Positions 14,169 to 57,594 of a stretch of DNA of 64,000 nucleotides are shown one piece after another; position 1 is the stretch's first letter; every line of letters begins with the position of its first letter. Origin of the DNA: a virus; IMG/VR virus record IMGVR_UViG_3300010165_000001, positions 1-64,000 of that record. The stretch is one strand, 5' to 3'. The notes below the pieces were generated by a model that worked only from the letters and a program-made list of their open reading frames with translations, was not told the origin of the DNA and did not search any database. The translations under genes were made by a program, and so were the position numbers.

Positions 14169-14408
14169 ATGGAATGGTTTACAGCAGATAAAGGGTTTAA
14201 TCAAGAGCAAGCAGATTTTTCTAATTACGTAGGGGAGTTACTACAAAATCCTGAGTATAGATATGTAGATAGAGATGTCATTGGTCATTGTATCTCTTGT
14301 TTAAGTGTATTACATCGTTCAGGAGAAGACATCAACGAATTAGCTAAGAAGGCTGATGAGTTATTTAACACTATCGTAGATAAACAGGATAATATAGAAA
14401 ATAATTAA
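14169..14408 (+). CDS. hypothetical small protein
   Basis: ORF; SD TAGGAGGAG. Confidence 0.7.
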   Translation: MEWFTADKGFNQEQADFSNYVGELLQNPEYRYVDRDVIGHCISCLSVLHRSGEDINELAKKADELFNTIVDKQDNIENN

Positions 14409-14422
14409 ATAAAAAACTTTAA

Positions 14423-14460
14423 CTCTATCTATTGACATAGGTAGAGTTTTATTATATAAT
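14423..14460 (+). promoter_or_regulatory. terminator hairpin with -35 box in its loop, fused to promoter
   Basis: Stem CTCTATCTA 14423-31 / TAGGTAGAG 14438-46, loop TTGACA 14432-37, TTTT, TATAAT 14455-60. Confidence 0.7.
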
Positions 14461-14493
14461 AAGAGTATATCAAATAAGGAGATGATGATAACG

Positions 14494-15528
14494 ATGGGTA
14501 AGGTAAAAAGAAAATGTAAACGATGGAAGCAGGAGGAAATTGAGATAGCTAAAAGTTTATATAAAAGTGGTATGAATCTTAGTGAGATTGGAAGAGAGGT
14601 AGGGAGACCGTCAGGGTCGGTAAGAGTTAAATTGTCGGAGTTGGGGATTCATAAAGTTGATAAGGTATACTTATGGGACATTGAAAGTGTTAGAGGTCAT
14701 ATAATAGATATAGATGAAGCAAAGACACTTACACATCAAAGTCATGAACGAATAATGTTTCAATGTTCTACTGTTGGATGTGAGAATACTAAAATGATGC
14801 TTGTTAAGAATTTAGTAAAACAAGGTTTCTCTTGCCCTAACTGTTCAACAGGAATCAGCTATCCCGAATCATTTTTCACAGCATATTTAGAAGTTAAAGG
14901 AATTCCATACGAGACACAGGTTATATATGAAGATTTAAGTGATAGAAGATATGATTTCCGTATACAGTTAAAGGGGACTATATTTTTATGTGAAACACAT
15001 GGCATACAGCATTATCATACAGAAGATATGGGTTATCATAAAGTTGAAACTATTCAAAAATCAGATTCTGTCAAGAGGGAATATGCTAAATCAAATGGAA
15101 TCAATTACATTGAATTAGATTGTAGGAAATCAACTTTTGAATTTATTAGAAATAGCATTGAAAGTAATAAATACTTACCTAATATAGAAGATAAAGAAAT
15201 TCCAAATATGCTAGAGTTAATGGAATTAAATTCTAAATACCCAGTGAAAAAAATTATCAGAATGTATGAATCAGGAAAATCATCTTATCAAATAGGTGAG
15301 GAGTTAGGGTATGATGCCATAATAATACAGAGAATCCTTAAGCATAATAATATTAAATTGCGTGATAAGAAGCGTATGGTGCGACTTGTAGAAACTAATC
15401 AAATTTATGTATCAATTGCGGAAGCACAACGTCAAACAGGGATTCATGGTAGTAATATCAGTATGGCTTGTAATGGAAGACGAAAAAAAGCAGGTAGTTA
15501 TCATTGGGAATATGTTGACAATGAATAG
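14494..15528 (+). CDS. free-standing homing-endonuclease-like protein (HTH modules + Zn-ribbon/nuclease-like core)
   Basis: C-terminal VETNQIYVSIAEAQRQTGIHGSNISMACNGRRKKAGSYHWEYV is NUMOD1/IENR1-like; CPNC ribbon; ..DFRI..CETHGIQHY core; ATG 14494 preferred. Confidence 0.5.
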   Translation: MGKVKRKCKRWKQEEIEIAKSLYKSGMNLSEIGREVGRPSGSVRVKLSELGIHKVDKVYLWDIESVRGHIIDIDEAKTLTHQSHERIMFQCSTVGCENTKMMLVKNLVKQGFSCPNCSTGISYPESFFTAYLEVKGIPYETQVIYEDLSDRRYDFRIQLKGTIFLCETHGIQHYHTEDMGYHKVETIQKSDSVKREYAKSNGINYIELDCRKSTFEFIRNSIESNKYLPNIEDKEIPNMLELMELNSKYPVKKIIRMYESGKSSYQIGEELGYDAIIIQRILKHNNIKLRDKKRMVRLVETNQIYVSIAEAQRQTGIHGSNISMACNGRRKKAGSYHWEYVDNE

Positions 15529-16858: not shown

Positions 16859-17209
16859 ATGGATGAATTAAAACTTATACCAACTTATAGAGTGGTAAAT
16901 AGATATAATGTAAGTAAAAACAAAGTTGAGATACTACTTGTTAACCTAGCTAACGATTTTGATGTTATCACAATAAAAGTATCAAAAAATGCTAGTAACA
17001 TGATTGCAGATAGCTCATGTTATTCTATTACTACAAGAACCAAGAGAACATGGTATACACTTTGGTTAGGTAAAAAAGAAGAACACCATGTGTTAGGTAA
17101 TATAGATGAAGAAGGTAAAGTACTCATGACTATAAATTCACCACCACTATCAGATAAAGCTATAGATAATTTTAAAAAAGAATGGAAAAGAGTAAATTAT
17201 AATGAATAA
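16859..17209 (+). CDS. hypothetical protein
   Basis: ORF; SD TAGGAGAG. Confidence 0.7.
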   Translation: MDELKLIPTYRVVNRYNVSKNKVEILLVNLANDFDVITIKVSKNASNMIADSSCYSITTRTKRTWYTLWLGKKEEHHVLGNIDEEGKVLMTINSPPLSDKAIDNFKKEWKRVNYNE

Positions 17210-17295
17210 CACAACAGAAGATACTGTTACTTATGTTATAAATAGAATAGAGTAACTAGGTTATAATATACAGGTGCATAGAGAGGATTATGGGT

Positions 17296-17404
17296 ATTAT
17301 ATAAGTATTTACTTATAATAAGATGGTATATTATAAGTGATATATAATGTATAAAGGAGATAGCGATATGGCAGTATTAAAGATATACAATAAAGAAAAA
17401 GAAC
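17296..17404. repeat. left copy of ~109-bp direct repeat (about 90 percent identical to 21286-21394)
   Basis: Direct alignment by eye, 11 mismatches; covers upstream region, SD and first 12 codons of the fibre gene. Confidence 0.85.
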
Positions 17405-19491
17405 TTATCCTTGTAAGCCAAGAATTTACAGGAGATAAAGGGTGGGGATTACTTACTGACCTTATACCCTATACTACTTATGAAGAAGGAACATACTTTG
17501 TAAGTTGGGAAGATAAAAATTATGAAACAGAATTAATACCAGTACCTAAATTTAAAACAGAAAGTAGTACAAATAAAGAATTAGTATTTTACTTTAAAGA
17601 TGCTTTAACAGTTAAACCTATGACTGCTTATGATATTGCAGTTAAAAACGGATTTAGCGGTACAGAAAAAGAATGGGTCGAGTCTATTAAAGGGGAGAAA
17701 GGAGATAGTGGTTTAAACCTTACACAAGGTGGAAGTGCTTATGAGTATGCTCTAGATAATGGTTTTGAAGGAACTGTAGAAGAGTGGTTAGAATCTCTTA
17801 AAGGAGACAAAGGTGATACAGGTGAACAAGGACCTAAAGGACCACAAGGACCTAAGGGTAACAAAGGAGATAAAGGGGAACCTTTAAGATTCTCAGATTT
17901 AACCGAAGAACAAATACAATCATTAAAAGGTAAAGATGGAACTATGACCTTTGAAGACTTAACAGAAAAGCAAAGAGAATCCCTTAAAGGAGCTCAGGGA
18001 GAAGATGGTCTATCTGCATATGAAATAGCAAAAAAATTAGGTTATGAAGGTACAGAAAGTGAATGGGTAGAAAGTCAAGACATTAAAATAAACACAGTTA
18101 AAAAAGAAGCTACTGAAGACCCTTATTACAATGAGATAGTATATAATACTTACTTTGATGACAATTCAAAAAGCATTTATCACGTAGTAGACATACCACA
18201 CAAAGATAAAGACGGGAATCTTATAAAGTTAAAAACAGATAAACCAGCAGAGCCTACAACTGCTAGAGAATTTTCAAATAAATACCAACCTAGTGCGATA
18301 ATAAATTCCTCCGTATTTAATACAAGAACCTTAGTACCTTCAGGTGTGCAAATACAAGATGGTGAAATAATAGAAGATAAACGTTCAGGTACATTAAGAA
18401 CGTTAGGTATCAAGGATGATAATACGTTAATAGATTTCACTTCTGATGTAACAGCTCAAGAAATACTAGATAAGGGTATAAAAAATACTGTGACAGGTTT
18501 TTACCCTATATTAAATGGAGAAGAAAAACCTTACACTACTATTGAAAATGCAAGTTCTAATGTTAATGAACAACACCCTAGGCAGATAATAGCACAAAGA
18601 CCTAATAAGGACTTAATGTTTATTACCGTAGAAGGTAGGACTACCGATAGCGTGGGTATGACTTATGACCAAATGCACGACCTATGTAAAAGATTAGGTG
18701 CTAGTTATGCTTATTGCCTAGATGGTGGAGGTTCTGCTCAAACTGTAGTAAGAGGTAATTTACTAAACCGTCAAGTAGATAATAAAGGAATGTCAGAAAG
18801 GATAGTCCCAGATTTCCTTTATGTAACTAAAGATTCTGATAATAAAAATTCAATTGTTAGTCAGAATTATGATACAGGGAATATTACTAAGAAATTAACA
18901 GAAATTATGTACACAATGTCTAATATTAATGGTGTACCTAGTAATCTAAGTTTTAGTAGTAATTTAGATACTATAGATAAAACAGGATTTTATTGGTCTT
19001 ATAAGGATACTATAGGTGTTCCAGGAGAAATGAGTTATGGTATCCTACACTTCCAAATTTCTGCTAACTCAGCTATGCAGGTTGCCTTTCCTTATCACAA
19101 TAGAGATAGTGAAATTAAATATAGAAGAACAACAGGAACAGGAACTACAAATCAATGGCATGATTGGAGGGGTAATGACACTTCAACATGGAACGGTTTA
19201 ATTTTAGCTGATGGTTGGTCAAATTATGGAAACGGAGAGCCAGGGTTAGGGTATTCACAACAAGGAAATAAAGTATATCTTAAAGGAACTGTGAAAGGAA
19301 GCTCATCTAATAATGTAGTAGCTATTTTACCCGAAGAACTAAGACCTAAAATAATGTTTGTAATCCCTTCTACTAGTAGAGAAGGAGACCAATATAAAGC
19401 CTCAGCTATTAAGATAAACCCACAAGGGGAGGTACAATTACTTAACCCTACTACAGAATGGAATATTATAAGTGTTACGTATTTAATATAA
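17368..19491 (+). CDS. collagen-like fibre/receptor-binding-type protein with phosphodiester glycosidase (DUF2233/NAGPA-like) domain
   Basis: N-terminal FN3-like module shared with 52573 and 52826; three SAYE.A..GF.GT..EW..S motifs; GXY runs (GDKGDTGEQGPKGPQGPKGNKGDKGEP); YCLDGGGSAQ; ATG 17368 after AAGGAG. Confidence 0.7.
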   Translation: MAVLKIYNKEKELILVSQEFTGDKGWGLLTDLIPYTTYEEGTYFVSWEDKNYETELIPVPKFKTESSTNKELVFYFKDALTVKPMTAYDIAVKNGFSGTEKEWVESIKGEKGDSGLNLTQGGSAYEYALDNGFEGTVEEWLESLKGDKGDTGEQGPKGPQGPKGNKGDKGEPLRFSDLTEEQIQSLKGKDGTMTFEDLTEKQRESLKGAQGEDGLSAYEIAKKLGYEGTESEWVESQDIKINTVKKEATEDPYYNEIVYNTYFDDNSKSIYHVVDIPHKDKDGNLIKLKTDKPAEPTTAREFSNKYQPSAIINSSVFNTRTLVPSGVQIQDGEIIEDKRSGTLRTLGIKDDNTLIDFTSDVTAQEILDKGIKNTVTGFYPILNGEEKPYTTIENASSNVNEQHPRQIIAQRPNKDLMFITVEGRTTDSVGMTYDQMHDLCKRLGASYAYCLDGGGSAQTVVRGNLLNRQVDNKGMSERIVPDFLYVTKDSDNKNSIVSQNYDTGNITKKLTEIMYTMSNINGVPSNLSFSSNLDTIDKTGFYWSYKDTIGVPGEMSYGILHFQISANSAMQVAFPYHNRDSEIKYRRTTGTGTTNQWHDWRGNDTSTWNGLILADGWSNYGNGEPGLGYSQQGNKVYLKGTVKGSSSNNVVAILPEELRPKIMFVIPSTSREGDQYKASAIKINPQGEVQLLNPTTEWNIISVTYLI

Positions 19492-19507
19492 AACAATAAA
19501 TAAAGTA

Positions 19508-19536
19508 TTGACATTCTAATTACTATCCTTTATACT
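19508..19536 (+). promoter_or_regulatory. sigma-A promoter
   Basis: TTGACA-17-TATACT. Confidence 0.7.
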
Positions 19537-19571
19537 AAGTATATAATCAATTAGGAGGTAATACATTACGA

Positions 19572-19759
19572 ATGAATTATAAAGCGTATAAACACTATTT
19601 AATAAATTAGAGAAGCAGTTAGAAGATAAAGAATGTTGCGAAAATGAACAATCAGGGTATAAATATATACTAAATTTTCAAAAGGGTCTTAACGATATAG
19701 GTTTCGAAGTACTATACTATGATGATTTAAAAGATATTATAGAAGAACAAAAAGACTAA
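19572..19759 (+). pseudogene. small gene split by a 1-nt frame change
   Basis: ATG 19572 after AGGAGG stops at TAG 19608; the -1 frame is open 19592-19759 (..LEKQLEDKECCENEQSGYKY..EEQKD*) and has no start codon. Confidence 0.4.
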
Positions 19760-19787
19760 TTGAGTTACCAGGATAGTGTGGTATAAT
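19760..19787 (+). promoter_or_regulatory. extended -10 promoter
   Basis: TTGAGT-16-TGgTATAAT. Confidence 0.5.
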
Positions 19788-19840
19788 TTAACAATAAAGT
19801 TGAAATACTAAAGAGACTTGTAAAACACTTATAAAAATAC

Positions 19841-19869
19841 TTGACAAAAGTAAAAACTAATGATATGAT
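19841..19869 (+). promoter_or_regulatory. sigma-A promoter
   Basis: TTGACA-17-TATGAT. Confidence 0.65.
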
Positions 19870-19903
19870 AAAGGTGATAATAAAATAAAAGGAGAAATGT
19901 AAA

Positions 19904-20236
19904 ATGGCAAGAGTAAAAATAAGTAATGTACTTGAAAAAATGTGTGTGGGGAAACTAAAGGAAGAGGTATATAAAAAAAATACTTACGCTTTCGATAACT
20001 TACACAATCACCTATTTAAGTTAAAACTAGACTATTTTAAAAACTCAAACGACCCACATTATCATGATTTACCTGATGAGCTAGTATTCAAAGGTACGTA
20101 TAAAGAGTTATATGATGAAGTGTATAGTAGTGGGTTAATTGAGTCAGAGTATGCTTACGCAAGTAAACTTAAAGAAGAAAATCAATACGGTTCGTTAATT
20201 CAGGTTAAAGTCGGAGAAGTAGAAGTAATTAAATAA
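19904..20236 (+). CDS. hypothetical protein
   Basis: ORF; SD AAAGGAGAA. Confidence 0.7.
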   Translation: MARVKISNVLEKMCVGKLKEEVYKKNTYAFDNLHNHLFKLKLDYFKNSNDPHYHDLPDELVFKGTYKELYDEVYSSGLIESEYAYASKLKEENQYGSLIQVKVGEVEVIK

Positions 20237-20245
20237 AAATTTTGA

Positions 20246-20283
20246 CCCTATCTATTGACTTAGATAGGGTTTTAGTATATAAT
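20246..20283 (+). promoter_or_regulatory. terminator hairpin with -35 box in its loop, fused to promoter
   Basis: Stem CCCTATCTA/TAGATAGGG, loop TTGACT 20255-60, TTTT, TATAAT 20278-83. Confidence 0.7.
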
Positions 20284-20313
20284 AAGAGTATATCAAATAA
20301 GGAGATGAAATGT

Positions 20314-20595
20314 ATGGAAGTCATTATTAAATTAAAAAAAGAATTAGTAGATGAAAATATCTCAGAATTGTTCGTAGGAGTAGAAGTATCGACAATAATG
20401 AATAAAGGTTGGGTATCGTTAAAAGTATCTTATGAGGAGAATAACGTTAATCAATTAAGTTACCATTTAGATGTATTATTTAAAGAGTATTTTAAATATC
20501 ATGACCGTATTGGGATGAGAATTAATAACATGACTTATATGGCAACAAGTGATAATAAAAATGTAAAAGAAATTATGCAGAAATTACTCAAATAG
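20314..20595 (+). CDS. hypothetical protein
   Basis: ATG 20314, 9 nt after AAGGAG; track start 20242 lies inside the promoter. Confidence 0.65.
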   Translation: MEVIIKLKKELVDENISELFVGVEVSTIMNKGWVSLKVSYEENNVNQLSYHLDVLFKEYFKYHDRIGMRINNMTYMATSDNKNVKEIMQKLLK

Positions 20596-20705
20596 GAAAA
20601 ACTAATAAGAATATAAAAAATTAGTCAACCTTAATAAAAATCCACGAAAGGCGTGGTTGACGTTAAATATTACGAATAAAAGAATCATTTTATAGGAGGT
20701 AGAAT

Positions 20706-20945
20706 ATGATACTAAACTTATTAATCAGTTTAAGTATTGTCATAGGATTTGTAATAATCATGTATTTTGTCGCATTAATAATAATTAATATAGCATTTAA
20801 AATAGAATCATTTATTAAAAGAAAAAAAGAAGAAGTAGGATTAGAAAAATGGTATAGAGTGGACACTATTATCAGAAGTGTTTTATTGATAAGTGGAATG
20901 ATTGCACTATTAACATTTTTTGTTTACACTATTCTTTTTACTTAA
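20706..20945 (+). CDS. two-TM membrane protein
   Basis: Hydrophobic N- and C-terminal spans; SD TAGGAGG. Confidence 0.7.
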   Translation: MILNLLISLSIVIGFVIIMYFVALIIINIAFKIESFIKRKKEEVGLEKWYRVDTIIRSVLLISGMIALLTFFVYTILFT

Positions 20946-20966
20946 AACATAAATTTTATTTTAGTG

Positions 20967-20995
20967 TTTACATTTAATAAGTAATATGGTAAGAT
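20967..20995 (+). promoter_or_regulatory. sigma-A-like promoter
   Basis: TTTACA-17-TGgTAAGAT. Confidence 0.55.
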
Positions 20996-21021
20996 TAATA
21001 TATAATAAATTAGGAGGAATT

Positions 21022-21246
21022 ATGATGAAAAAGAAATTTACAATTGAAGTTGAAATGGAAGAAAGATGGGTTAATGATTTTATGTCAATGTTAAATAAAA
21101 TGGAATATCTTGGCAGCTTAGGAGCTTCAAGAACAGTTTCTATATTTTCAGATGGCGATGGGGATTTTCAACCTAAATTTAAATCGGATGTAGAATGGGA
21201 AAAAATAGAATCTGATATAGAAGACAATCATTATGATGCAGGATAA
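21022..21246 (+). CDS. hypothetical small protein
   Basis: ATG 21022 after TAGGAGGA; track start 20986 overlaps the promoter. Confidence 0.65.
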   Translation: MMKKKFTIEVEMEERWVNDFMSMLNKMEYLGSLGASRTVSIFSDGDGDFQPKFKSDVEWEKIESDIEDNHYDAG

Positions 21247-21285
21247 AACATACATTTTATAGGGGAAGTTATAATGGGGATAGGC

Positions 21286-21394
21286 ATTATATAAGTGTTT
21301 ATCTATAACAAGGTGAAATATTATAAGTGATATATAATGTATAAAGGAGATAACGATATGGTGGTATTAAAGATATATAATAAAGAAAAAGAAC
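21286..21394. repeat. right copy of ~109-bp direct repeat
   Basis: Aligns with 17296-17404. Confidence 0.85.
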
Positions 21395-21450
21395 GTATGG
21401 AGTTGTACGAAGAAATTAAGCATATGTATAATCTTAAAGTAAAAGATTAA
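21358..21450 (+). pseudogene. 30-codon remnant duplicating the 5' end of the fibre gene
   Basis: MVVLKIYNKEKE.. versus MAVLKIYNKEKE.. at 17368; diverges after codon 12, stops at 21448. Confidence 0.45.
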
Positions 21451-21493
21451 CCTTGTTATATTAATCATAAATGTATAATAAGGGGTAATTATA

Positions 21494-21856
21494 TTGGACT
21501 TAGAAAATCAATTATATATGTACAAAGCACATGTTGATAATGTTGTAGATGGTGATACAGTTGATATTACTTTAGACCATGGATTTAATTTTTATTCAAA
21601 ACAACGTGTACGGTTATTGAGTGTAGATACTCCAGAACGTGGTCAAGAGAATTACCACCAAGCTACTGAGTTTACAGAAAGTAAACTATTAAATCAGAAC
21701 GTGGTTGTACAGACTTACAAATCAGATAATTTCGGTAGATATTTAGCTACTATATTCTACTTAGAGAATAATGAGTATAAAAGTATTAGTCAAGAACTAA
21801 TGAATAAAGGACTTATAAAACCAAATAGTAAATGGAATACTTTAGAACGAGAATAA
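21494..21856 (+). CDS. staphylococcal-nuclease-like (SNase/thermonuclease) protein
   Basis: VVDGDTVDI..QRVRLLSVDTPER..GRY pattern; TTG start. Confidence 0.65.
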   Translation: MDLENQLYMYKAHVDNVVDGDTVDITLDHGFNFYSKQRVRLLSVDTPERGQENYHQATEFTESKLLNQNVVVQTYKSDNFGRYLATIFYLENNEYKSISQELMNKGLIKPNSKWNTLERE

Positions 21857-21872
21857 ATTTCTCGTTCTTTTT
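21845..21872 (+). terminator. rho-independent terminator
   Basis: GAACGAGAA/TTCTCGTTC stem then TTTTT. Confidence 0.8.
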
Positions 21873-21903: not shown

Positions 21904-21932
21904 TTGACACTTACTTTTAATTATGTTATAGT
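21904..21932 (+). promoter_or_regulatory. sigma-A promoter
   Basis: TTGACA-17-TATAGT. Confidence 0.7.
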
Positions 21933-23366: not shown

Positions 23367-23615
23367 ATGAAGCTATATCAAGTAGAACATAATAATTGTG
23401 AACAATATGAAGATAATTATTCTTATAGAGAAGATAAAGTTTACACAAATAAAGAGAACTTAATTAAACGTATTAAAGCAGAAGGGTATGAAGAAAAAAG
23501 AGGTGGTTACCCTCCAGATGGGTATACTTACTATTATAAAGATAATATAGAAGATGTACCATTATTTAGAGAAGATATGATTACTATTCATGAGATAACT
23601 TTAAAAGAAAATTAA
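23367..23615 (+). CDS. hypothetical small protein
   Basis: ORF; SD AAAGGAGGA. Confidence 0.7.
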   Translation: MKLYQVEHNNCEQYEDNYSYREDKVYTNKENLIKRIKAEGYEEKRGGYPPDGYTYYYKDNIEDVPLFREDMITIHEITLKEN

Positions 23616-23629
23616 ATAAAAAAATTTAA

Positions 23630-23667
23630 CTTTACGTATTTACTTTCGTAGAGTTTTACTGTATAAT
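23630..23667 (+). promoter_or_regulatory. terminator-like hairpin with -35 in loop, fused to promoter
   Basis: CTTTACG/CGTAGAG stem, TTTACT 23639-44, TTTT, TATAAT 23662-67. Confidence 0.6.
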
Positions 23668-23696
23668 AAAAGTATAACTAATAAGGAGGAATTATA

Positions 23697-24206
23697 ATGG
23701 AAGATTTAGACAGTAAATTTGACAGTATATTGGAAAGTATTTCAAATATGACTGATGAACAAATTGAAAGTATTAATAAGGATTTAAAAAGAAAAGAACA
23801 GAAGAGAGATTTAATTTCAAGGAAAGCTGAGAATAAAGATTTTGATTTAAATAAGATGTTTGGAGAGGTAATAGATATATACGGAAGTATATCGACAGAA
23901 GATATTCTTTATTCTTATGAAGATAGTTATAAACATCTATATACAAGTGAAGAATTTATGCACCAAGAATTAGACTCTATATGTATGTATGTTAATAACT
24001 TTTACAATGACAATAAAATGGAATATCCACCATTCTATATAGATACTTATTTTGGTATGGATATTTACTTACGATATAATGGTGAATTGTTTAGGTATTT
24101 CTATATGCAAGGGCAAGGAACAGCAGAAGGTTTCACTAAAGGTGGTTTAGCTAAGAGAGTTAAGTATTGCTTGAACTTAAATACTGAGACAGTTGAAAGA
24201 ATTTAA
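23697..24206 (+). CDS. hypothetical protein (last plus-arm gene)
   Basis: ORF; SD AAGGAGGA. Confidence 0.7.
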   Translation: MEDLDSKFDSILESISNMTDEQIESINKDLKRKEQKRDLISRKAENKDFDLNKMFGEVIDIYGSISTEDILYSYEDSYKHLYTSEEFMHQELDSICMYVNNFYNDNKMEYPPFYIDTYFGMDIYLRYNGELFRYFYMQGQGTAEGFTKGGLAKRVKYCLNLNTETVERI

Positions 24207-25431: not shown

Positions 25432-25509
25432 ATCAATTCCCTTCTTATTTGTTACACTAAGTATATCATGGTTACAAGTTACTGTCAATAGTTTTTTTAA
25501 ACTTTTTTA
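25432..25509. repeat. 78-bp promoter+leader cassette, copy 1
   Basis: Apparently identical to 25748-25825; holds UP tract, TTGACA (rc 25483-88), TATACT, leader to SD. Confidence 0.9.
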
Positions 25510-25747: not shown

Positions 25748-25825
25748 ATCAATTCCCTTCTTATTTGTTACACTAAGTATATCATGGTTACAAGTTACTG
25801 TCAATAGTTTTTTTAAACTTTTTTA
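25748..25825. repeat. 78-bp promoter+leader cassette, copy 2
   Basis: See 25432-25509. Confidence 0.9.
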
Positions 25826-52572: not shown

Positions 52573-52809
52573 TTAAGCTTCAGGTTCTCCCGACTCTTCT
52601 GGTTGTTCAGCTTGTTCTGTTGTAAATGTAGGTACATCTACTTTAGCACTTTCCCCTGATTCATTAGAGAACGAGACTTGGAAAGTACCTTCAGGATACT
52701 CAGTTCCTGCATCTAAGCCACTAATAGTAGCTTTAGCAGAACCATCTTCCCCTACTTCTGTATATTGTACTACTTCTTCACCTTTATAAACATTGAATAC
52801 TTTTGCCAT
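52573..52809 (-). CDS. FN3/Ig-like single-domain protein
   Basis: Same ~65-aa module as the N-termini of 52826 and 17368 (..Y.G....G......I..L...T.YP.GT.QV....ESGES.KVDVP.F.T). Confidence 0.65.
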   Translation of the reverse strand: MAKVFNVYKGEEVVQYTEVGEDGSAKATISGLDAGTEYPEGTFQVSFSNESGESAKVDVPTFTTEQAEQPEESGEPEA

Positions 52810-52825
52810 AAGTTAGAGTTTCCTC

Positions 52826-53341
52826 CTATACGATAATATCTGCTGTTGTTTCACTTGGTTCTACAGTTACATCTTCAGGTGCATCAGGTATTGGGTCTTT
52901 TACAGTTACTTCACAAGTAGCTTGTTTATTACCTTCTTCACTTGTAACAGTAATAGTAGCTGTACCTGGACTAATTGCTAATACACTACCTGAATCATCT
53001 ACAGTAGCAACGTCTTCATTATCTGAAGAGAAACTTACATTTTTATTATCTGCTTCATTAGGACTTACTGTTGCTGTTAGGGTATCTGTTTGTTCAGTTT
53101 CTAATTCTAAAGTGTTTTTATCTAAAGATACACTAACTACACCAACAGATTTAGTTTTAAATTCAGGAACATCTACCTTATCACTTTCACCCGATTCATT
53201 TTCAAAAGCAACTTGATATGTTCCTTTAGGATATGTCGTATTAGAGTCTAAGTCTGTAATTGTAACAGAAGCAATATCTCCTTGTTTTTCTCCAGATGTT
53301 AATAATTCTTCACCTTTATACAAATTTAACTTTTCTACCAA
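52826..53341 (-). CDS. Ig-like protein (FN3-like module + Big_2 domain)
   Basis: VSLDKNTLELETEQTDTLTATVSPNEADNKNVSFSSDNEDVATVDDSGSVLAISPGTATITVTS is a typical Big_2. Confidence 0.75.
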   Translation of the reverse strand: MVEKLNLYKGEELLTSGEKQGDIASVTITDLDSNTTYPKGTYQVAFENESGESDKVDVPEFKTKSVGVVSVSLDKNTLELETEQTDTLTATVSPNEADNKNVSFSSDNEDVATVDDSGSVLAISPGTATITVTSEEGNKQATCEVTVKDPIPDAPEDVTVEPSETTADIIV

Positions 53342-53359
53342 AACATTTCATCCTTTCAA

Positions 53360-54010
53360 TTATTCAGCAGATACATCTGCTTCTTTTTCTTTTGGCTCTA
53401 CGTCTACATTTTCTGGTTCTTTAGGTGCTTCGATTTCTTTTTCTTCTTTAGCTACTGATTCAGCTACACCTTCTGGGTATGGTCTCATTTCAGTACGTGT
53501 TGAACCCCAAGCAAAACGTTCTTCTCTTGCTCGTGCAGAAGGTGTATCAGAGTCTTCAAAGTTCTCTGCATCTTCATCAGAGCTATCTTTAACACCGAAA
53601 GCATCTTCTGTATTTGTAAAGAATACGTTATAAACACCTAATGTAAAGTTATCATAAGCAAATGCTAAGAAAGCTTGTAATACTTGTTTAGCTTTGTCTA
53701 ATCCTTTAATATCTTCTTCACGAATAATTGGGTGTTCGTATGGGTCTGTAACTGTACTTACTACGAAATATACAATATCTCCATCAGTGTAAATGATTGG
53801 TGATTTCTTACGTGTAACAAGTGTACCTTTACCATCAGTTTCTACTGGGTATACAAAGTACTCTTCACCTTCTTGAACCACTTTATAAGAGTATACCCCA
53901 TTATGTGTTCCTGTATAACCGTCTGCATTTGTTTTAACTTCTAGATATTTATTATTAATATCTACTGTACCATCTTGAAAGATTACATCTTTCAATACTT
54001 CTTTAACCAT
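53360..54010 (-). CDS. hypothetical protein (possibly virion-associated)
   Basis: Leads the Ig-like gene trio; no sigma-A promoter upstream. Confidence 0.6.
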   Translation of the reverse strand: MVKEVLKDVIFQDGTVDINNKYLEVKTNADGYTGTHNGVYSYKVVQEGEEYFVYPVETDGKGTLVTRKKSPIIYTDGDIVYFVVSTVTDPYEHPIIREEDIKGLDKAKQVLQAFLAFAYDNFTLGVYNVFFTNTEDAFGVKDSSDEDAENFEDSDTPSARAREERFAWGSTRTEMRPYPEGVAESVAKEEKEIEAPKEPENVDVEPKEKEADVSAE

Positions 54011-54086
54011 TTATTTTCATCTCCTAATTGATTTAAATTATTATTATTGTTTTCAGTAATAATATATCACTCATACGGTACTCTTC

Positions 54087-54740
54087 CTACATTTCCCACG
54101 TATTATTTTCAGTATTCACTCTACCTTTAACAATATCTATATCCTTATTATTACTTTCATGTGCATGTAACTTAAACCTTATAAAATCTTTTAGTTCTGT
54201 TAATGTTCGTGTAACATCTTTTCTAGGTACTTCCATTCGACTAGCTACATTAGATACAATGATAGGGTCATCTACATTCTCATCATTTGTAAATATTTCA
54301 TGTAATAACTCACTCTCAACTTCAGTGAAATCAACACCATCGAATAAATAACTTACCAAATCATTCATATATAAATCACTATCACTTGATTCGATAATCG
54401 TTTCTAATGTATCATCATCATTACCAAATACAACATTAGCTTCCCTATCTCTATTCTTTTTAACATAACTATTTCTAACTCTCATTGTTAATTTACTTTT
54501 AATGTAATAAGGGAAGTCTACTTCACTATGAATATTATATTCTTTAACAAGTTTAATGAATTGCTCATTAATGTATTCTAAGAGTTCTTCTTTCTTAACA
54601 TAACTATCCATTTGGTTTGCAAATCTATAATATAGAGCATATCTAAGGTTTTTATAGTTGTGCATAAGCTTATCTATGTCTCTATCTAATTCATGACTCA
54701 ATCCTTCTGTATCTATTACATATCTATTTCCATTATTCAA
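54087..54740 (-). CDS. phage RNA polymerase sigma-factor-like protein
   Basis: Region-2-like EQFIKLVKEYN..FPYYIKSKLTMRVRNSYVKK and C-terminal HTH-like RMEVPRKDVTRTLTELK; position next to recA as in Twort/SPO1-like phages. Confidence 0.55.
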   Translation of the reverse strand: MNNGNRYVIDTEGLSHELDRDIDKLMHNYKNLRYALYYRFANQMDSYVKKEELLEYINEQFIKLVKEYNIHSEVDFPYYIKSKLTMRVRNSYVKKNRDREANVVFGNDDDTLETIIESSDSDLYMNDLVSYLFDGVDFTEVESELLHEIFTNDENVDDPIIVSNVASRMEVPRKDVTRTLTELKDFIRFKLHAHESNNKDIDIVKGRVNTENNTWEM

Positions 54741-55116: not shown

Positions 55117-55143
55117 AAAACAAGAAGACCTTTATTGGTCTTC
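55117..55143 (-). terminator. terminator overlapping the recombinase stop codon
   Basis: GAAGACC/GGTCTTC stem then TTGTTTT. Confidence 0.6.
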
Positions 55144-56358
55144 CTGCTCTCCTTTTGTTTCTTCTTTAGGTTTTTCTTTTTCTAATTCATCATAATATTC
55201 TTCTAGTGCTTTATATTCAGGTATAGTTGTAATATCTACATCTTTATTCTTTAATGGTGCATACCCTTTAGGGAAATTTGCTACATAAGTACGTTTAAAT
55301 AGCTCTTCAAACAACTCAGGGTCTTCCTTAAGTCTAGGAGTCCATTCAGCATCACGTAATTTAATCTCTTCACCATTTAAAGTAACATAATTTCTCCATG
55401 CTCCTTTAGTAATAAAACCTTTTTCTACTGCTTCTTGATAAATTGTATACTCAGGGTCTAAACCATTAATAACTTCTCCTGTAGGTAAATCCCATTCTGA
55501 AAGTAAATCAGCACTTGCTTTTTGATTAGGTCTAGATAATTTAGATTTCTTAGTTTCTAATCTCATAGAGTGTCCTGAATATTCTTCTTTACCTGCTGTT
55601 TCTTTATGTTGTTTTACTTGTGCTCCTTTATTAACTTTAAGTCTTAAACTAGCACTATGCTCAAAAGCTTTACCCCCACCAGATTTAACTTTATCCCCAT
55701 ACATACCTGCATCCATGTCGTCTCTTGCTTGGTTTACAACAATAATACCTGTGTTTGTATTATTTAATTTAGGTGTTATAGCATTAATAACTTTTTGTGT
55801 GGCAGAAGCTCTTATACCCATCTGTTTAGTATCAATACCGCCATCTATTTCTGTTTGTGAACGTGTAGCACCTAGTGAATCCCATATAAATACAATAGGA
55901 ACACCTGGGTACTTCTCATTAAAAGTATCTACCCAATACTCTAACTCCTTACCTACTTGTTCAATAGATAACTCAACTGTATTTTTAAGTCTCTGACCTT
56001 CTCCTGCTTGAATAGAGAATATCTTAGTAATATCCACACCTAGTTGTTCCATTCTTGCATTATCGGCTGTACCTTCTGTATCTACCCAAACAGTAATAAT
56101 ACCTAAATCAATTAGTGTTTTTGTTAGGTGCACAGCAAAAGTCGATTTACCGCTACTAGGTATCCCGTAAACCTCGGTAAGTCTTCCTAAAGGAATCCCT
56201 CCACCCATAATTCTATCATATTGAGGTACTCTTGTAGGTAATATATTTTTAATATCTGCTTTGTTTGTATCTGATAGGATTGTCAATCCCATTTCTTTAC
56301 CTAAATCAATTGTATTTAAATCAGACATATCAAATTGTTTTTTACTGCTTCTTGCCAT
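55132..56358 (-). CDS. RecA/UvsX-family recombinase
   Basis: Walker A GIPSSGKST, IVFIWDS, VVNQARD.. core typical of RecA-like ATPases. Confidence 0.8.
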   Translation of the reverse strand: MARSSKKQFDMSDLNTIDLGKEMGLTILSDTNKADIKNILPTRVPQYDRIMGGGIPLGRLTEVYGIPSSGKSTFAVHLTKTLIDLGIITVWVDTEGTADNARMEQLGVDITKIFSIQAGEGQRLKNTVELSIEQVGKELEYWVDTFNEKYPGVPIVFIWDSLGATRSQTEIDGGIDTKQMGIRASATQKVINAITPKLNNTNTGIIVVNQARDDMDAGMYGDKVKSGGGKAFEHSASLRLKVNKGAQVKQHKETAGKEEYSGHSMRLETKKSKLSRPNQKASADLLSEWDLPTGEVINGLDPEYTIYQEAVEKGFITKGAWRNYVTLNGEEIKLRDAEWTPRLKEDPELFEELFKRTYVANFPKGYAPLKNKDVDITTIPEYKALEEYYDELEKEKPKEETKGEQEDQ

Positions 56359-56384
56359 AAATCTTTTCCTCCTTTTGTATACCT

Positions 56385-56415
56385 AAAAAATAAAGTAGCA
56401 CAGTTAAGTGCTACT
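56385..56415 (-). terminator. rho-independent terminator
   Basis: AGTAGCAC/GTGCTACT stem then TTATTTTTT. Confidence 0.7.
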
Positions 56416-56424
56416 ATTAAATTC

Positions 56425-57594
56425 TTATAGTCCAATATTCCCTAGAATATCGTCTACACTCTTCATTTTGTTCTGTGATTGCTGTTCTTGAGGAATATTA
56501 GGTTGTTCTTGTTGTTGTTGTGCTTGTTGTTGTTGTTGTGTATTGAATGGTACTTGTGAGTCATCTACACTACCTGTACCCACACCAGACCATGGATTAC
56601 CTTGTTCTGGTTGTGATTGTTGTTGAGCTAAGTTATTCCAATCAACATTACCTTGTTGAGTAGATTGAGACTGTTGAACAGGCTGTTGTTGCTCTACAGG
56701 TTGACTTTGAGTTGGAGCTCCTAAGTTTGAAGGCATTTGATTATCGATTTGTTGCTGTGAAGGTGATTGTCCTCCAGATTGACCTTGACTTGGTGCTGTA
56801 TTACCATCATCTTCAAAATCAAAGTTCTTGATTGATTTATCTGTACCATTAATACTGTTGATTACAAAGTTTACAAAACCTGGTGAACTTTCCTCTGTTG
56901 GTTCAGCCATTTTTTGAATGTCACTTGTTAAGTTTTCCCATCCTTGTGGTAATTGACCTAAATCTTGACGTTGGTAAACTTCTGCTTTATAACTTGTATC
57001 TGTTCCTTGACCTGTACGATATAGTTTAACTGCAAAGGCATGGTTTTCTGAGATAAAATTTAAGTTAGAATCTTGTGTTGGCATTAAGTTTTCATCTTGT
57101 AACTTAACTGATAAGTCGTCAAATAATGTTTTTGTTAATTCCATAGGTGCTACAAGAACATTACCCATAGGGTCTACTTGATATTGGAATTGACCTTGAT
57201 TAGATACTAATGGGATTACGTTTACTAAATAACGTTGTGCAGGGTTTGTATTATAGTCATTAATCTTAACGTTATTATTCTTCCAGTTAGAAATAAATGA
57301 ATCTAATACTGATTCTCCCATAGTGAATGGTAATGTGAATGGTGAACTTGTAGCTGTTCCATCACCTTTAACATAGTTTAAGAAAATACTACGGAATTTA
57401 CTAAAGAATTGAAGACCTTCTGTATCTTCTTGTGTTTTAACTCCTGGTAATACACGTACAATAATCTCAGGGTTTTGTTTATTTAAACGAATTGTTTTAT
57501 TCTTTGGTTGGTATCTCTCTTGTTGGTTATTATTGAAATTACTCTCTGTACTTTGTTGTTCTTGTGATAAAAAATTACTAAATGAATTCATCAT
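56425..57594 (-). CDS. gp32-like ssDNA-binding protein with Q-rich linker and acidic tip
   Basis: IVRVLPG, RYLVNVIPL, AFAVKLYRTGQGTDTSYKAEVY parallel T4 gp32 [36 protein letters not shown]; ends ..VDDILGNIGL. Confidence 0.5.
   Translation of the reverse strand: MMNSFSNFLSQEQQSTESNFNNNQQERYQPKNKTIRLNKQNPEIIVRVLPGVKTQEDTEGLQFFSKFRSIFLNYVKGDGTATSSPFTLPFTMGESVLDSFISNWKNNNVKINDYNTNPAQRYLVNVIPLVSNQGQFQYQVDPMGNVLVAPMELTKTLFDDLSVKLQDENLMPTQDSNLNFISENHAFAVKLYRTGQGTDTSYKAEVYQRQDLGQLPQGWENLTSDIQKMAEPTEESSPGFVNFVINSINGTDKSIKNFDFEDDGNTAPSQGQSGGQSPSQQQIDNQMPSNLGAPTQSQPVEQQQPVQQSQSTQQGNVDWNNLAQQQSQPEQGNPWSGVGTGSVDDSQVPFNTQQQQQAQQQQEQPNIPQEQQSQNKMKSVDDILGNIGL

What the first reader, a model, noticed from the sequence alone, without database searches (positions are those of the whole stretch)
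17296..21394. Fibre-gene cassette flanked by ~109-bp direct repeats that duplicate its upstream region and first 12 codons
17296-17404 and 21286-21394 align at about 90 percent identity (11 mismatches by eye). The identical core is ATATTATAAGTGATATATAATGTATAAAGGAGATA, followed by the ATG. The left copy starts the 707-aa collagen-like fibre gene (MAVLKIYNKEKEL..). The right copy starts a 30-codon remnant (MVVLKIYNKEKERMEL..*). The 4-kb interval holds the fibre gene plus five small genes and one frameshifted gene. The geometry fits either a recombination scar from swapping an alternative fibre allele, or a substrate for precise deletion or amplification of the cassette. Either way it bears on host-range variation. 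The shared upstream block has no sigma-A consensus, so it may contain a late promoter.
Basis: seen in the sequence. Interest (0 to 1): 0.65.

Follow-up and report, generated by a model that had tools for sequence, protein, structure and literature searches.

The report
Orphan fibre-gene head: a recombination scar
The repeat is the late promoter, ribosome-binding site and first 12 codons of a swappable fibre-like enzyme gene of a Staphylococcus myophage. It is present once in working form and once as a dead stub fused to the tail of another small gene, which makes it a well-documented but ordinary scar of module shuffling.

Summary
The repeat is real: 17290-17408 and 21280-21398 match at 88% over 119 nt, with a 35-nt identical core that occurs nowhere else in the window. 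It is not an assembly artefact. The isolate phage vB_SurM-PSU4 and independent SRA contigs carry the same pair.

The block is the 5' "head" of a modular gene family of Twortvirinae. It holds a Kayvirus-type late promoter box (TGGTATATTA), an RBS, an ATG and the first codons. The family combines an Ig-like N-terminal module, collagen-like repeats and a variable C-terminal enzyme.

The left copy drives an intact 707-aa NAGPA-domain gene. The right copy is an orphan:
- Head codons 1-12 are fused in frame to the last 18 codons of a 53-aa gene. The join crosses an 11-nt microhomology (AGAAAAAGAAC). That gene is intact in Alsa phages.
- The orphan is a different allele: 87% identical to its neighbour and 91% to another lineage.
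- It carries disabling-looking private changes.
- In other samples it has received a 61-nt patch from a third allele.

Relatives fill the slot differently. However, the real exchange boundaries are the collagen-repeat region and a conserved early-promoter block, not the two repeats. No deletion product was found.

Verdict: a recombination scar in a hyperplastic locus. The late-promoter guess is supported, and interest is moderate to low.

The parts
16859..17209 (+). 116-aa gene (phrog_19859, annotated 'transcriptional regulator'). It is the usual upstream neighbour of intact family heads.
   Evidence: PHROG hit 5.3e-63. A homologous 114-116-aa gene precedes the head in PSU4, L089, L093 and L094.
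17290..17408 (+). Left repeat: the functional 'head block', holding the late promoter, leader, RBS and codons 1-13.
   Evidence: the repeat finder D1. It is 100% identical to the PSU4 left copy.
17324..17333 (+). Late-promoter-type extended -10 box TGGTATATTA. The predicted TSS is the G at about 17339. RBS AGGAG lies at 17355-17359.
   Evidence: Matches 9 of 10 positions of the Kayvirus consensus. The box is invariant in 12 of 12 intact heads. The same variant precedes the PSU4 transglycosylase gene.
17368..19491 (+). 707-aa late gene. Ig-like head is aa 1-~80. 'AYDIAVKNGF..EW..SIKG' repeats and a 9-triplet collagen-like run span aa ~85-240. The NAGPA phosphodiester glycosidase domain is aa 309-487, followed by a C-terminal domain of unknown fold.
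   Evidence: Pfam NAGPA 7.5e-29; Collagen below the cut-off. PHROGs. An identical protein occurs in two other SRA samples.
17705..17955 (+). Crossover zone inside the gene, in the collagen/repeat region, where homology to relatives with other bodies ends or begins.
   Evidence: Homology ends at 17705 (Golestan), 17850 (PSU4) and 17883 (L007). Homology to EW3 starts at 17955.
19508..19558 (+). Conserved sigma-A early-promoter block (TTGACA-17-TATACT plus the following TIR). This is the right-hand boundary of the swapped C-terminal module.
   Evidence: The same block follows family genes in PSU4 (twice), L089, L091 and MCE-2014.
19571..19830 (+). Decayed gene with in-frame stops. It is homologous to the 97-aa gene that follows the second-locus paralog in PSU4.
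   Evidence: tblastn 50% identity over 84 aa, E 7e-22, with stops in frame.
19904..21246 (+). Four small ORFs of unknown function: 19904-20236, 20314-20595, 20706-20945 (membrane-like) and 21022-21246. They carry internal early promoters at 19841 and 20255.
   Evidence: The segment 19559-20998 is absent in PSU4 and is bracketed by a 24-nt TIR-type repeat (D14, 15). L005 replaces 20700-21243 with another small gene.
21280..21394 (+). Right repeat: an orphan head fragment of a different allele. Its left edge abuts the TIR/ATG of a displaced gene at about 21270-21280.
21314..21323 (+). Degenerate late box TGAAATATTA, with a private GT->AA change at positions that do not vary in intact heads.
21312..21372 (+). 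Patch that is replaced by another head allele (L093-type) in the orphans of L104 and L101.
   Evidence: 22-23 of the 27 differences in 1,032 aligned nt fall in this stretch (alignment).
21358..21450 (+). Chimeric 30-codon ORF: head codons 1-12 plus the last 18 codons of a 53-aa gene. The join lies within the microhomology AGAAAAAGAAC (21384-21394).
   Evidence: Alsa_1 CDS0174 is intact (...SESDLEKERMELYEEIKHMYNLKVKD*) directly upstream of the nuclease. The 53-aa gene forms a 12-member cluster on many 142-148-kb contigs.
21454..21463 (+). Perfect late box TGTTATATTA upstream of the nuclease gene.
   Evidence: It is conserved in PSU4, Golestan101-M and Alsa_1.
21494..21868 (+). SNase-type nuclease gene (TTG start, 120 aa) with an intrinsic terminator at 21844-21868. 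It is the conserved right-hand neighbour.
   Evidence: Pfam SNase 3.2e-11. Terminator. An identical protein is found in 14 contigs with varied upstream content.

Best explanation
The window comes from a Baoshanvirus-like Staphylococcus myophage (Herelleviridae, Twortvirinae). Its 'left arm' of small early genes contains a single-gene late transcription unit for a modular protein. That protein has an Ig-like N-terminal 'head', collagen-like and helical repeats, and a variable C-terminal enzyme, here a NAGPA phosphodiester glycosidase.

The repeated block is the conserved 5' end of this gene family. It consists of a phage-sigma-dependent late promoter (extended -10 box, no -35), a short leader, the RBS and the first 12 codons. 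The left copy is the working one.

The right copy is an orphan fragment of another allele's head, joined illegitimately at both ends. On the left it abuts the translation-initiation region of a displaced small gene. On the right it is fused, across an 11-nt microhomology, into codon ~35 of a 53-aa gene that normally sits just upstream of the nuclease. It is therefore a scar of past cassette turnover, not a boundary element.

Shown:
- the anatomy of both copies;
- the chimeric junction;
- the allelic (non-sister) relationship of the two copies;
- polymorphism of the slot among relatives;
- patch replacement inside the orphan.

Inferred:
- late transcription in this particular phage;
- that the orphan is functionally dead;
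- the order of events. The likely order is acquisition of a second head-bearing unit by recombination between co-infecting phages, followed by microhomology-mediated loss of its body;
- that the protein is a virion-attached or lysis-released enzyme acting on cell-wall polymers.
For: - Repeat and core are specific to these two sites.
- PSU4 has the same pair with a different gene body plus an S8 peptidase between the copies.
- Proteins headed by this block share about 110-150 identical N-terminal residues and then diverge into NAGPA, SGNH, deacetylase, M14, beta-helix and other domains.
- The late box TG-N-TATATTA lies 35-45 nt upstream of the ATG in all intact heads, including distant paralogs.
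- The published Kayvirus late consensus is TGTTATATTA with no -35.
- In PSU4, 9 of 10 such boxes are intergenic, on the coding strand and 33-85 nt upstream of the next annotated gene: holin, transglycosylase, major capsid protein and six unnamed genes. Five of those nine lie inside the structural-gene block.
- The mapped late promoter pL32 of phage 515A1 drives ORF32, a 105-aa 'structural protein' homologous to the head (E 1e-11 to 1e-13). The predicted head fold matches the ISP 105-aa protein at 1.1 A rmsd.
- The window encodes the phage sigma factor and a RecA-like recombinase.
- The orphan is 87% identical to the left copy but 91% identical to the L089 head. Between-lineage alleles differ by 83-91%.
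- The orphan tail equals the 3' end of the intact Alsa 53-aa gene, joined at AGAAAAAGAAC. That gene is common while the chimera is rare.
- The left flank is the native TIR of the 74-aa gene's downstream neighbour.
- Each orphan allele has its own disabling-looking change. The window and PSU4 have box TGAAATATTA. L104 and L101 have RBS AGGAAA->AGTAAA.
- 22-23 of the 27 window-versus-L104 differences lie in a 61-nt patch.
Against: - There are no transcription data for this phage, so promoter activity rests on motif and homology.
- The orphan ORF is still open in both alleles, and one allele keeps an intact RBS while the other keeps an intact box. Residual expression or a role as an extra late promoter for the nuclease cannot be excluded.
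- The sequence of events (tandem acquisition then deletion, or circle integration) is not resolved by the available genomes. No genome with two adjacent intact heads at this spot was found.
- Virion association is inferred from 'structural protein' annotations of homologs. The fold search against PDB gave nothing significant.
- Pfam Collagen is below its cut-off.
Confidence: 0.8

Rival explanations
1. The head block plus a downstream orphan head form a working recombination 'handle'. LxR recombination would excise the 3,990-bp cassette as a circle, or delete or amplify it. Orphan heads in other genomes would serve as docking sites for re-insertion, as with PeSL mini-circles of T4-type phages.
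For: - The two copies are direct repeats sharing a 35-nt perfect tract.
- The phage encodes RecA-like and gp32-like proteins.
- The orphan demonstrably takes part in homologous exchange, as shown by the 61-nt patch.
- A precedent exists in PMC2839356.
- The geometry head-cassette-head is what Campbell-type integration at a head would give.
Against: - Crossovers that distinguish relatives map elsewhere: the collagen region, the early-promoter block and TIR repeats.
- The predicted recombinant mini-ORF MAVLKIYNKEKERMELYEE... is absent from the 15-billion-protein collection.
- Only one lineage group carries the orphan.
- The orphan accumulates disabling changes.
- The homology is only 115 nt at 88%.
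Confidence: 0.1
2. This is an in-situ tandem duplication of the head region, or of the whole gene, followed by decay of the second copy. No foreign allele is involved.
For: Direct repeats in the same orientation 4 kb apart. Two family members per genome is common, as in PSU4, L090 and EW3.
Against: - The two copies differ by 12-13%, while the flanking DNA is 99-100% identical between the window and PSU4.
- The orphan is closer to the head of another lineage (L089, 91%) than to its neighbour (87%).
- The orphan's left and right flanks are non-homologous joins to other genes.
Confidence: 0.05
3. The right copy is retained because it works as an additional late promoter or leader for the nuclease operon.
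For: It lies 165 nt upstream of the nuclease start. The L104 allele has an intact TGGTATATTA box.
Against: - The nuclease has its own perfect TGTTATATTA box at 21454, also present in genomes without the orphan.
- The window/PSU4 allele has a box mutated at position 4, which does not vary in the boxes examined.
- Many phages with the identical nuclease lack the orphan.
Confidence: 0.08
4. The repeat is an assembly artefact or a chance AT-rich similarity.
For: The window is a metagenome contig, and Logan unitigs break inside the 35-nt core.
Against: - The same pair is in a sequenced isolate, PSU4.
- L005 spans the interval.
- The repeat is shorter than a read and only 88% identical.
- No core matches are expected by chance.
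Confidence: 0.01

Closest known systems
Kayvirus late promoters and the pL32-ORF32 late unit of phage vB_SauM-515A1 (Kornienko et al. 2020, PMC7698491)
   Same: Extended -10 box TG(T/C/G)TATATTA without a -35 box, about 40 nt upstream of the start codon. The unit is a lone late gene embedded in the early left arm. ORF32 is homologous to the head module.
   Different: ORF32 is head-only at 105 aa. Here the head carries a collagen-like stalk and an enzyme. The box has G at position 3. No TSS has been mapped for this phage.
PeSL regulatory cassettes that mediate modular shuffling, and mini-circles, in T4-type phages (Arbiol et al. 2010, PMC2839356; Comeau et al. 2014, PMC4122927)
   Same: Short conserved regulatory sequences bracket variable genes in hyperplastic regions and act as recombination points. 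Here the 3' boundary of the family (terminator hairpin plus TTGACA...TATACT) and the recurrent hairpin-promoter element at 14.4, 20.25 and 23.65 kb are composite terminator/early-promoter motifs of this kind.
   Different: The repeated block in the finding is a late promoter plus coding head, present only twice. One copy is a dead fragment made by microhomology joins. No circles have been shown.
Exchange of receptor-binding modules at collagen-like repeats in Streptococcus thermophilus phages (Duplessis & Moineau 2001). Cited from memory, not checked here.
   Same: Collagen-like G-X-Y repeats flank the variable part of a host-interaction protein and coincide with crossover points. Here homology to relatives ends at 17705-17955 within such repeats.
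   Different: Different phage group. Here the variable part is an enzyme domain, and passenger genes such as the S8 peptidase travel with it.
'Novel joints' and gene remnants in mosaic phage genomes (Hendrix/Hatfull school; from memory), and orphan modules of polymorphic toxin loci (CDI/Rhs; from memory)
   Same: A conserved N-terminal part with a variable C-terminal part. Truncated orphan pieces retain a short stretch of homology to the main gene. Junctions form at a few bases of microhomology.
   Different: In CDI/Rhs the orphans are 3' tips that can be swapped in. Here the orphan is a 5' head with no body, so it cannot supply a new function.

Membership tests
Kayvirus-type (phage sigma-dependent) late promoter | Extended -10 box TGTTATATTA (TGCTATATTA tolerated) | tested here: met
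   The left copy has TGGTATATTA at 17324-17333 (9/10). The same variant precedes the PSU4 transglycosylase gene. The orphan has TGAAATATTA (8/10, with position 4 changed).
Kayvirus-type (phage sigma-dependent) late promoter | No -35 box / UP element | tested here: met
   The sigma-70 scan lists no site of 9/12 or better whose -10 overlaps 17324-17349. Four weaker hits of that scan were not displayed. Read by eye, the hexamer about 17 nt upstream of the box core, AGTATT at 17304-17309, does not resemble TTGACA.
Kayvirus-type (phage sigma-dependent) late promoter | Transcription start about 6 nt after the box, active only late in infection | not testable with these tools
   A G lies at 17339, where a start is predicted. 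No RNA data exist for this phage. A homologous unit, pL32-ORF32, is late-only in phage 515A1.
Kayvirus-type (phage sigma-dependent) late promoter | Phage encodes the late sigma factor | tested here: met
   Window 54087-54740 (-) hits phrog_1025, RNA polymerase sigma factor, at 7.9e-69.
PeSL-like mobile regulatory cassette | Strong sigma-70 early promoter combined with a terminator stem-loop, in many copies in hyperplastic regions | tested here: not met
   The repeated head block has no sigma-70 promoter and no stem-loop terminator, and only two copies exist. Other elements of the locus do fit this description.
Recent in-situ tandem duplication | The two copies are each other's closest relatives | tested here: not met
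   L-R identity is 87%; R-L089 is 91%; L-L088 is 91%.
Truncated pseudogene / chimeric gene remnant | A fragment of a gene that is intact elsewhere, joined to unrelated sequence, with loss of conserved features | tested here: met
   Head codons 1-12 are joined to the 3' end of the Alsa 53-aa gene. There are private changes in the box or the RBS. The intact partners are common.
Collagen triple-helix fibre protein (Pfam PF01391) | Run of G-X-Y repeats scoring above the Pfam gathering threshold | tested here: inconclusive
   Nine uninterrupted triplets at aa 144-170, but 22.1 bits against a cut-off of 27.2. Several relatives pass the threshold.
NAGPA phosphodiester glycosidase (PF09992) | Domain match above the gathering threshold | tested here: met
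   101.5 bits against a cut-off of 25, aa 309-487. Catalytic activity was not tested.
Virion structural (fibre or decoration) protein | Detected in purified virions or attached via the N-terminal module | not testable with these tools
   Evidence is indirect only. The head is homologous to 'structural / major tail protein' PHROGs and to ISP and 515A1 proteins, and the promoter is of late type.

The most novel reading that the evidence does not exclude
The conserved late-promoter/head block is a dedicated recombination handle of Twortvirinae. Head-flanked cassettes, made of an enzyme tip plus passenger genes, would be excised as circles by recombination between an intact head and a downstream orphan head. 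They would then be captured at heads or orphans of co-infecting phages. That would give these therapeutic-type phages an integron-like or PeSL-mini-circle-like way to exchange late-expressed cell-surface enzymes.
Probability: 0.08. Interest if true: 0.65.

Novelty: new member of a known kind. Interest (0 to 1): 0.35.

Why it matters
Twort-like staphylococcal myophages are leading candidates for phage therapy. This locus shows, at base-pair resolution, how they reshuffle a late-expressed family of collagen-stalked enzymes (NAGPA, SGNH esterase, hexosaminidase, deacetylase, peptidase and others). These enzymes plausibly act on wall teichoic acid, peptidoglycan or biofilm matrix.

For annotators:
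- The 30-37-aa 'hypothetical protein' upstream of the nuclease is a chimera, not a gene.
- 'Lipase' and 'tail fiber' labels on family members hide a common head.
- A late promoter sits inside an otherwise early region.

For engineers, the conserved head/collagen region and the early-promoter block are natural seams for swapping enzymatic tips. The scar itself has no demonstrated function.

Tried and rejected
- Exact scans of IMG/VR and JGI metagenome contigs for the core gave 0 hits. The window's own contig appears to be withheld, so these scans say nothing about rarity.
- The search for related loci with a head alignment mostly returned the generic 'AYDIAVxNGFxGTExEW' fibre motif from unrelated phages. 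Only four true heads came back.
- I tested whether the Golestan101-M gene-to-nuclease spacer is itself a decayed head. The local alignment score was below the shuffle mean, so this was rejected. Its 3' part is instead a decayed end of the 53-aa gene.
- The idea that the orphan's CGTAT is a point mutation of the head's CTTAT was rejected once the Alsa gene was found.
- A possible GTTATAAT microhomology at the left junction would need an extra 19-nt deletion, so it was not adopted. The left join is placed at about 21270-21280, at the ATG of the displaced gene.
- Rfam found no family (best E 0.14, elsewhere in the scanned stretch), and the leader folds no better than shuffles.
- The single-sequence AlphaFold model of the head was unusable (pLDDT 54). 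The alignment-based model (pLDDT 84.8) has no significant PDB neighbour and matches only family members in BFVD.
- A PDB sequence search with the 707-aa protein gave nothing useful.
- Literature searches found no description of this gene family or locus.

Full report
**Observation.** The repeat is present as described.
- The repeat finder reports 17290-17408 and 21280-21398: 119 nt, 88% identity, 3,990 nt apart.
- The 35-nt identical core occurs only at these two sites, with none expected by chance.
- The left copy ends in the first codons of a 707-aa ORF (17368-19491). The right copy ends in a 30-codon ORF (21358-21450).

**Source and authenticity.**
- The window is part of a 140-kb JGI metagenome contig.
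- It belongs to a Staphylococcus myophage of Herelleviridae/Twortvirinae. The closest isolates are the Baoshanvirus phages vB_SurM-PSU4, Golestan101-M and phiSA_BS2.
- PSU4 has the same repeat pair (123 nt, 88%). Its left copy is 100% identical to the window's over 119 nt and its right copy over 181 nt.
- SRA contig L005 runs from the left copy into the right copy. L006 and L099 are 100% identical to the window and break inside the 35-nt core, as k-mer assemblies do at repeats. L104 and L101 carry the right copy in other samples.
- An assembly artefact is therefore excluded.

**What the block is.**
- The 707-aa protein, the PSU4 412-aa 'lipase acylhydrolase domain protein' and the Golestan 654-aa SGNH protein share an almost identical N-terminus of 110-155 residues and then diverge completely.
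- The large protein database holds many more members with the same head. Their C-termini include NAGPA, SGNH/GDSL, polysaccharide deacetylase, M14 peptidase and several unknown domains.
- tblastn finds the head in 246 Staphylococcus phage records.
- The first ~75 residues resemble small Ig-like 'structural / major tail protein' PHROGs. Paralogs lie at window 52573-53341 (-).
- An alignment-based model of the head (pLDDT 84.8) matches family members and the 105-aa ISP protein (rmsd 1.1 A) in BFVD. It matches nothing significant in PDB.
- The window protein also has 'AYDIAVKNGF..EW..SIKG' repeats, nine G-X-Y triplets and a NAGPA domain.

**Late promoter.** RNA-seq of Kayvirus 515A1 defined late promoters as an extended -10 box TGTTATATTA (TGCTATATTA tolerated), with no -35 and a start 6 nt downstream (PMC7698491).
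- The left copy has TGGTATATTA at 17324-17333, followed by G at 17339. The RBS is at 17355-17359.
- All twelve intact heads examined have TG-N-TATATTA 35-45 nt upstream of the ATG. This includes distant paralogs in MCE-2014, SA11, EW3 and PSU4.
- In 50 kb of PSU4's lysis and structural region, 9 of 10 such boxes are intergenic, on the coding strand and 33-85 nt upstream of the next annotated gene. Named examples are holin, transglycosylase (the same TGGTATATTA variant) and major capsid protein.
- The mapped late promoter pL32 of 515A1 lies in the left arm. It drives ORF32, a 105-aa 'structural protein' that is a head-only homolog.
- The window encodes the phage sigma factor.

**The right copy is an orphan chimera.**
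- In Alsa_1-4 and PG-2021_27, an intact 53-aa gene (...SESDLEKERMELYEEIKHMYNLKVKD*) lies directly upstream of the nuclease. Window 21384-21500 matches it at about 97%.
- The orphan ORF is therefore head codons 1-12 fused in frame to the last 18 codons of that gene. The join falls within the shared 11-mer AGAAAAAGAAC (21384-21394).
- The 53-aa gene is common: a 12-member cluster on many 142-148-kb contigs. The chimera is rare: three variants on four contigs.
- On the left, the orphan starts at the ATG of a gene displaced from behind the 74-aa gene. The TIR there is native to that position in genomes without the orphan.

**The right copy is not a sister of the left copy.**
- The two copies are 87% identical, within the 83-91% range seen between alleles of different lineages. 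The orphan's best match is the L089 head at 91%.
- The window/PSU4 orphan has a private GT->AA change in the -10 box, at a position that does not vary in intact heads or in PSU4 late boxes.
- L104 and L101 carry an orphan with identical outer junctions. Their central 61 nt comes from a third allele (L093-type), with an intact box but a mutated RBS. 22-23 of the 27 differences in 1,032 nt lie in that patch.
- The orphan therefore still undergoes homologous patch exchange with intact heads while it decays.

**Polymorphism of the slot.**

| Genome or contig | Content at the locus |
|---|---|
| L007 | Head plus a 574-aa body; no orphan and no nuclease |
| Golestan101-M, L088 | Head plus SGNH body, then the nuclease |
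| PSU4 | Head plus 412-aa body, S8 peptidase and one small gene, then orphan and nuclease |
| Window | NAGPA body, a pseudogene and four small genes, then orphan and nuclease |
| L005 | As the window, with one small gene swapped |
| L096-type | Nuclease with no family gene nearby |

The crossovers do not coincide with the repeats.
- Homology to relatives ends within the collagen/repeat region: 17705 (Golestan), 17850 (PSU4) and 17883 (L007). It begins at 17955 for EW3, where the NAGPA body sits on the other head type at a second locus.
- On the 3' side the boundary is a conserved early-promoter block at 19508. The same block follows family genes in PSU4, L089, L091 and MCE-2014.
- The 1.44-kb segment 19559-20998, absent in PSU4, is bracketed by a 24-nt TIR-type repeat.
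- Composite hairpin plus sigma-A promoter elements recur at 14.4, 20.25 and 23.65 kb. The window has 22 perfect TTGACW-N17-TATAMT sites against 0.22 expected. These resemble the PeSL cassettes that mediate shuffling in T4-type phages (PMC2839356).

**Mechanism.**
- Most likely, a second head-bearing unit was brought next to the nuclease by recombination between co-infecting relatives. The phage has its own RecA-like and gp32-like proteins.
- The body of that unit, and the front of the 53-aa gene, were then lost by a microhomology-mediated deletion. A similar join trimmed its upstream side.
- The order of these events is inferred, not shown.
- The two copies could in principle recombine, since they share a 35-nt perfect tract, and delete or duplicate the 3,990-bp cassette. 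The predicted recombinant mini-ORF is not in a 15-billion-protein collection, and no such variant was seen.

**Verdict.** The scar and late-promoter interpretations are supported. The cassette-boundary and deletion-substrate readings are not. The feature is a new, well-resolved example of known kinds of phage mosaicism. The modular late gene family around it is of more interest than the repeat itself.

Noticed in passing
window 21454-21463 and 21494-21868: The SNase-type nuclease has a perfect late box, TGTTATATTA, 31 nt upstream of its TTG start, and its own terminator. It therefore looks like a second late gene embedded in the early arm. The identical protein occurs in 14 contigs with at least four different upstream contexts.
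   Followed up: partly
window 14392-14484, 20216-20320 and 23600-23700 (also 19508-19558 and 21904-21932): A recurrent ~90-nt element: a hairpin whose loop carries the -35 TTGACA, then TATAAT and a conserved RBS. This is a composite terminator/early-promoter cassette resembling T4-type PeSLs. The window has 22 perfect TTGACW-N17-TATAMT sites against 0.22 expected.
   Followed up: partly
window 19571-19830: A decayed gene with several in-frame stops. It is homologous to the 97-aa gene that follows the second-locus paralog in PSU4. This suggests the NAGPA body and its 3' flank were imported from a second-locus arrangement. The window lacks the second-locus (MPHLKAYD-type) paralog that PSU4, L090 and EW3 have.
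   Followed up: partly
window 52573-54740 (-), with a box at 54060-54069 (-): The phage sigma factor gene (54087-54740) is followed by three Ig-like 'structural' genes. Two of them (78 aa and 171 aa) share the N-terminal module of the fibre family. A TGATATATTA box lies 50 nt upstream of the first of the three.
   Followed up: partly
window 55132-57594 (-): Genes for a RecA/UvsX-like recombinase (408 aa) and a gp32-like ssDNA-binding protein (389 aa). These are the phage's own recombination machinery and are relevant to the mosaicism seen here.
   Followed up: no
window 14482-15528: A 348-aa ORF with HTH and I-HmuI-type NUMOD motifs, possibly a homing-endonuclease-like protein, 1.8 kb upstream of the locus. 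Relatives carry an HNH_3 gene or IS605-type TnpB genes at comparable positions (L007, L093, L094).
   Followed up: no
window 17311-17338: A perfect 10-bp inverted repeat, ACTTATAATA-N8-TATTATAAGT, straddles the late -10 box of the left copy. It is only partly conserved in other heads and in the orphan (fold z-scores -1.7 to -2.0). It could be an operator for the upstream phrog_19859 'regulator' or could be fortuitous.
   Followed up: partly
L092 6148-6187 (Logan SRR9276232 contig): A 40-nt copy of the upstream part of the head block lies about 230 nt upstream of the true head, separated from it by a 51-aa ORF. This may be another small insertion scar in a relative.
   Followed up: no
window 25460-25488 and 25776-25804 (-): Two identical strong promoters (TTGACAGTAACTTGTAACCATGATATACT) lie 316 nt apart, in a region of repeated sequence around 25.3-30.5 kb with low GC. 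This probably lies near the long terminal repeat or host-takeover region.
   Followed up: no
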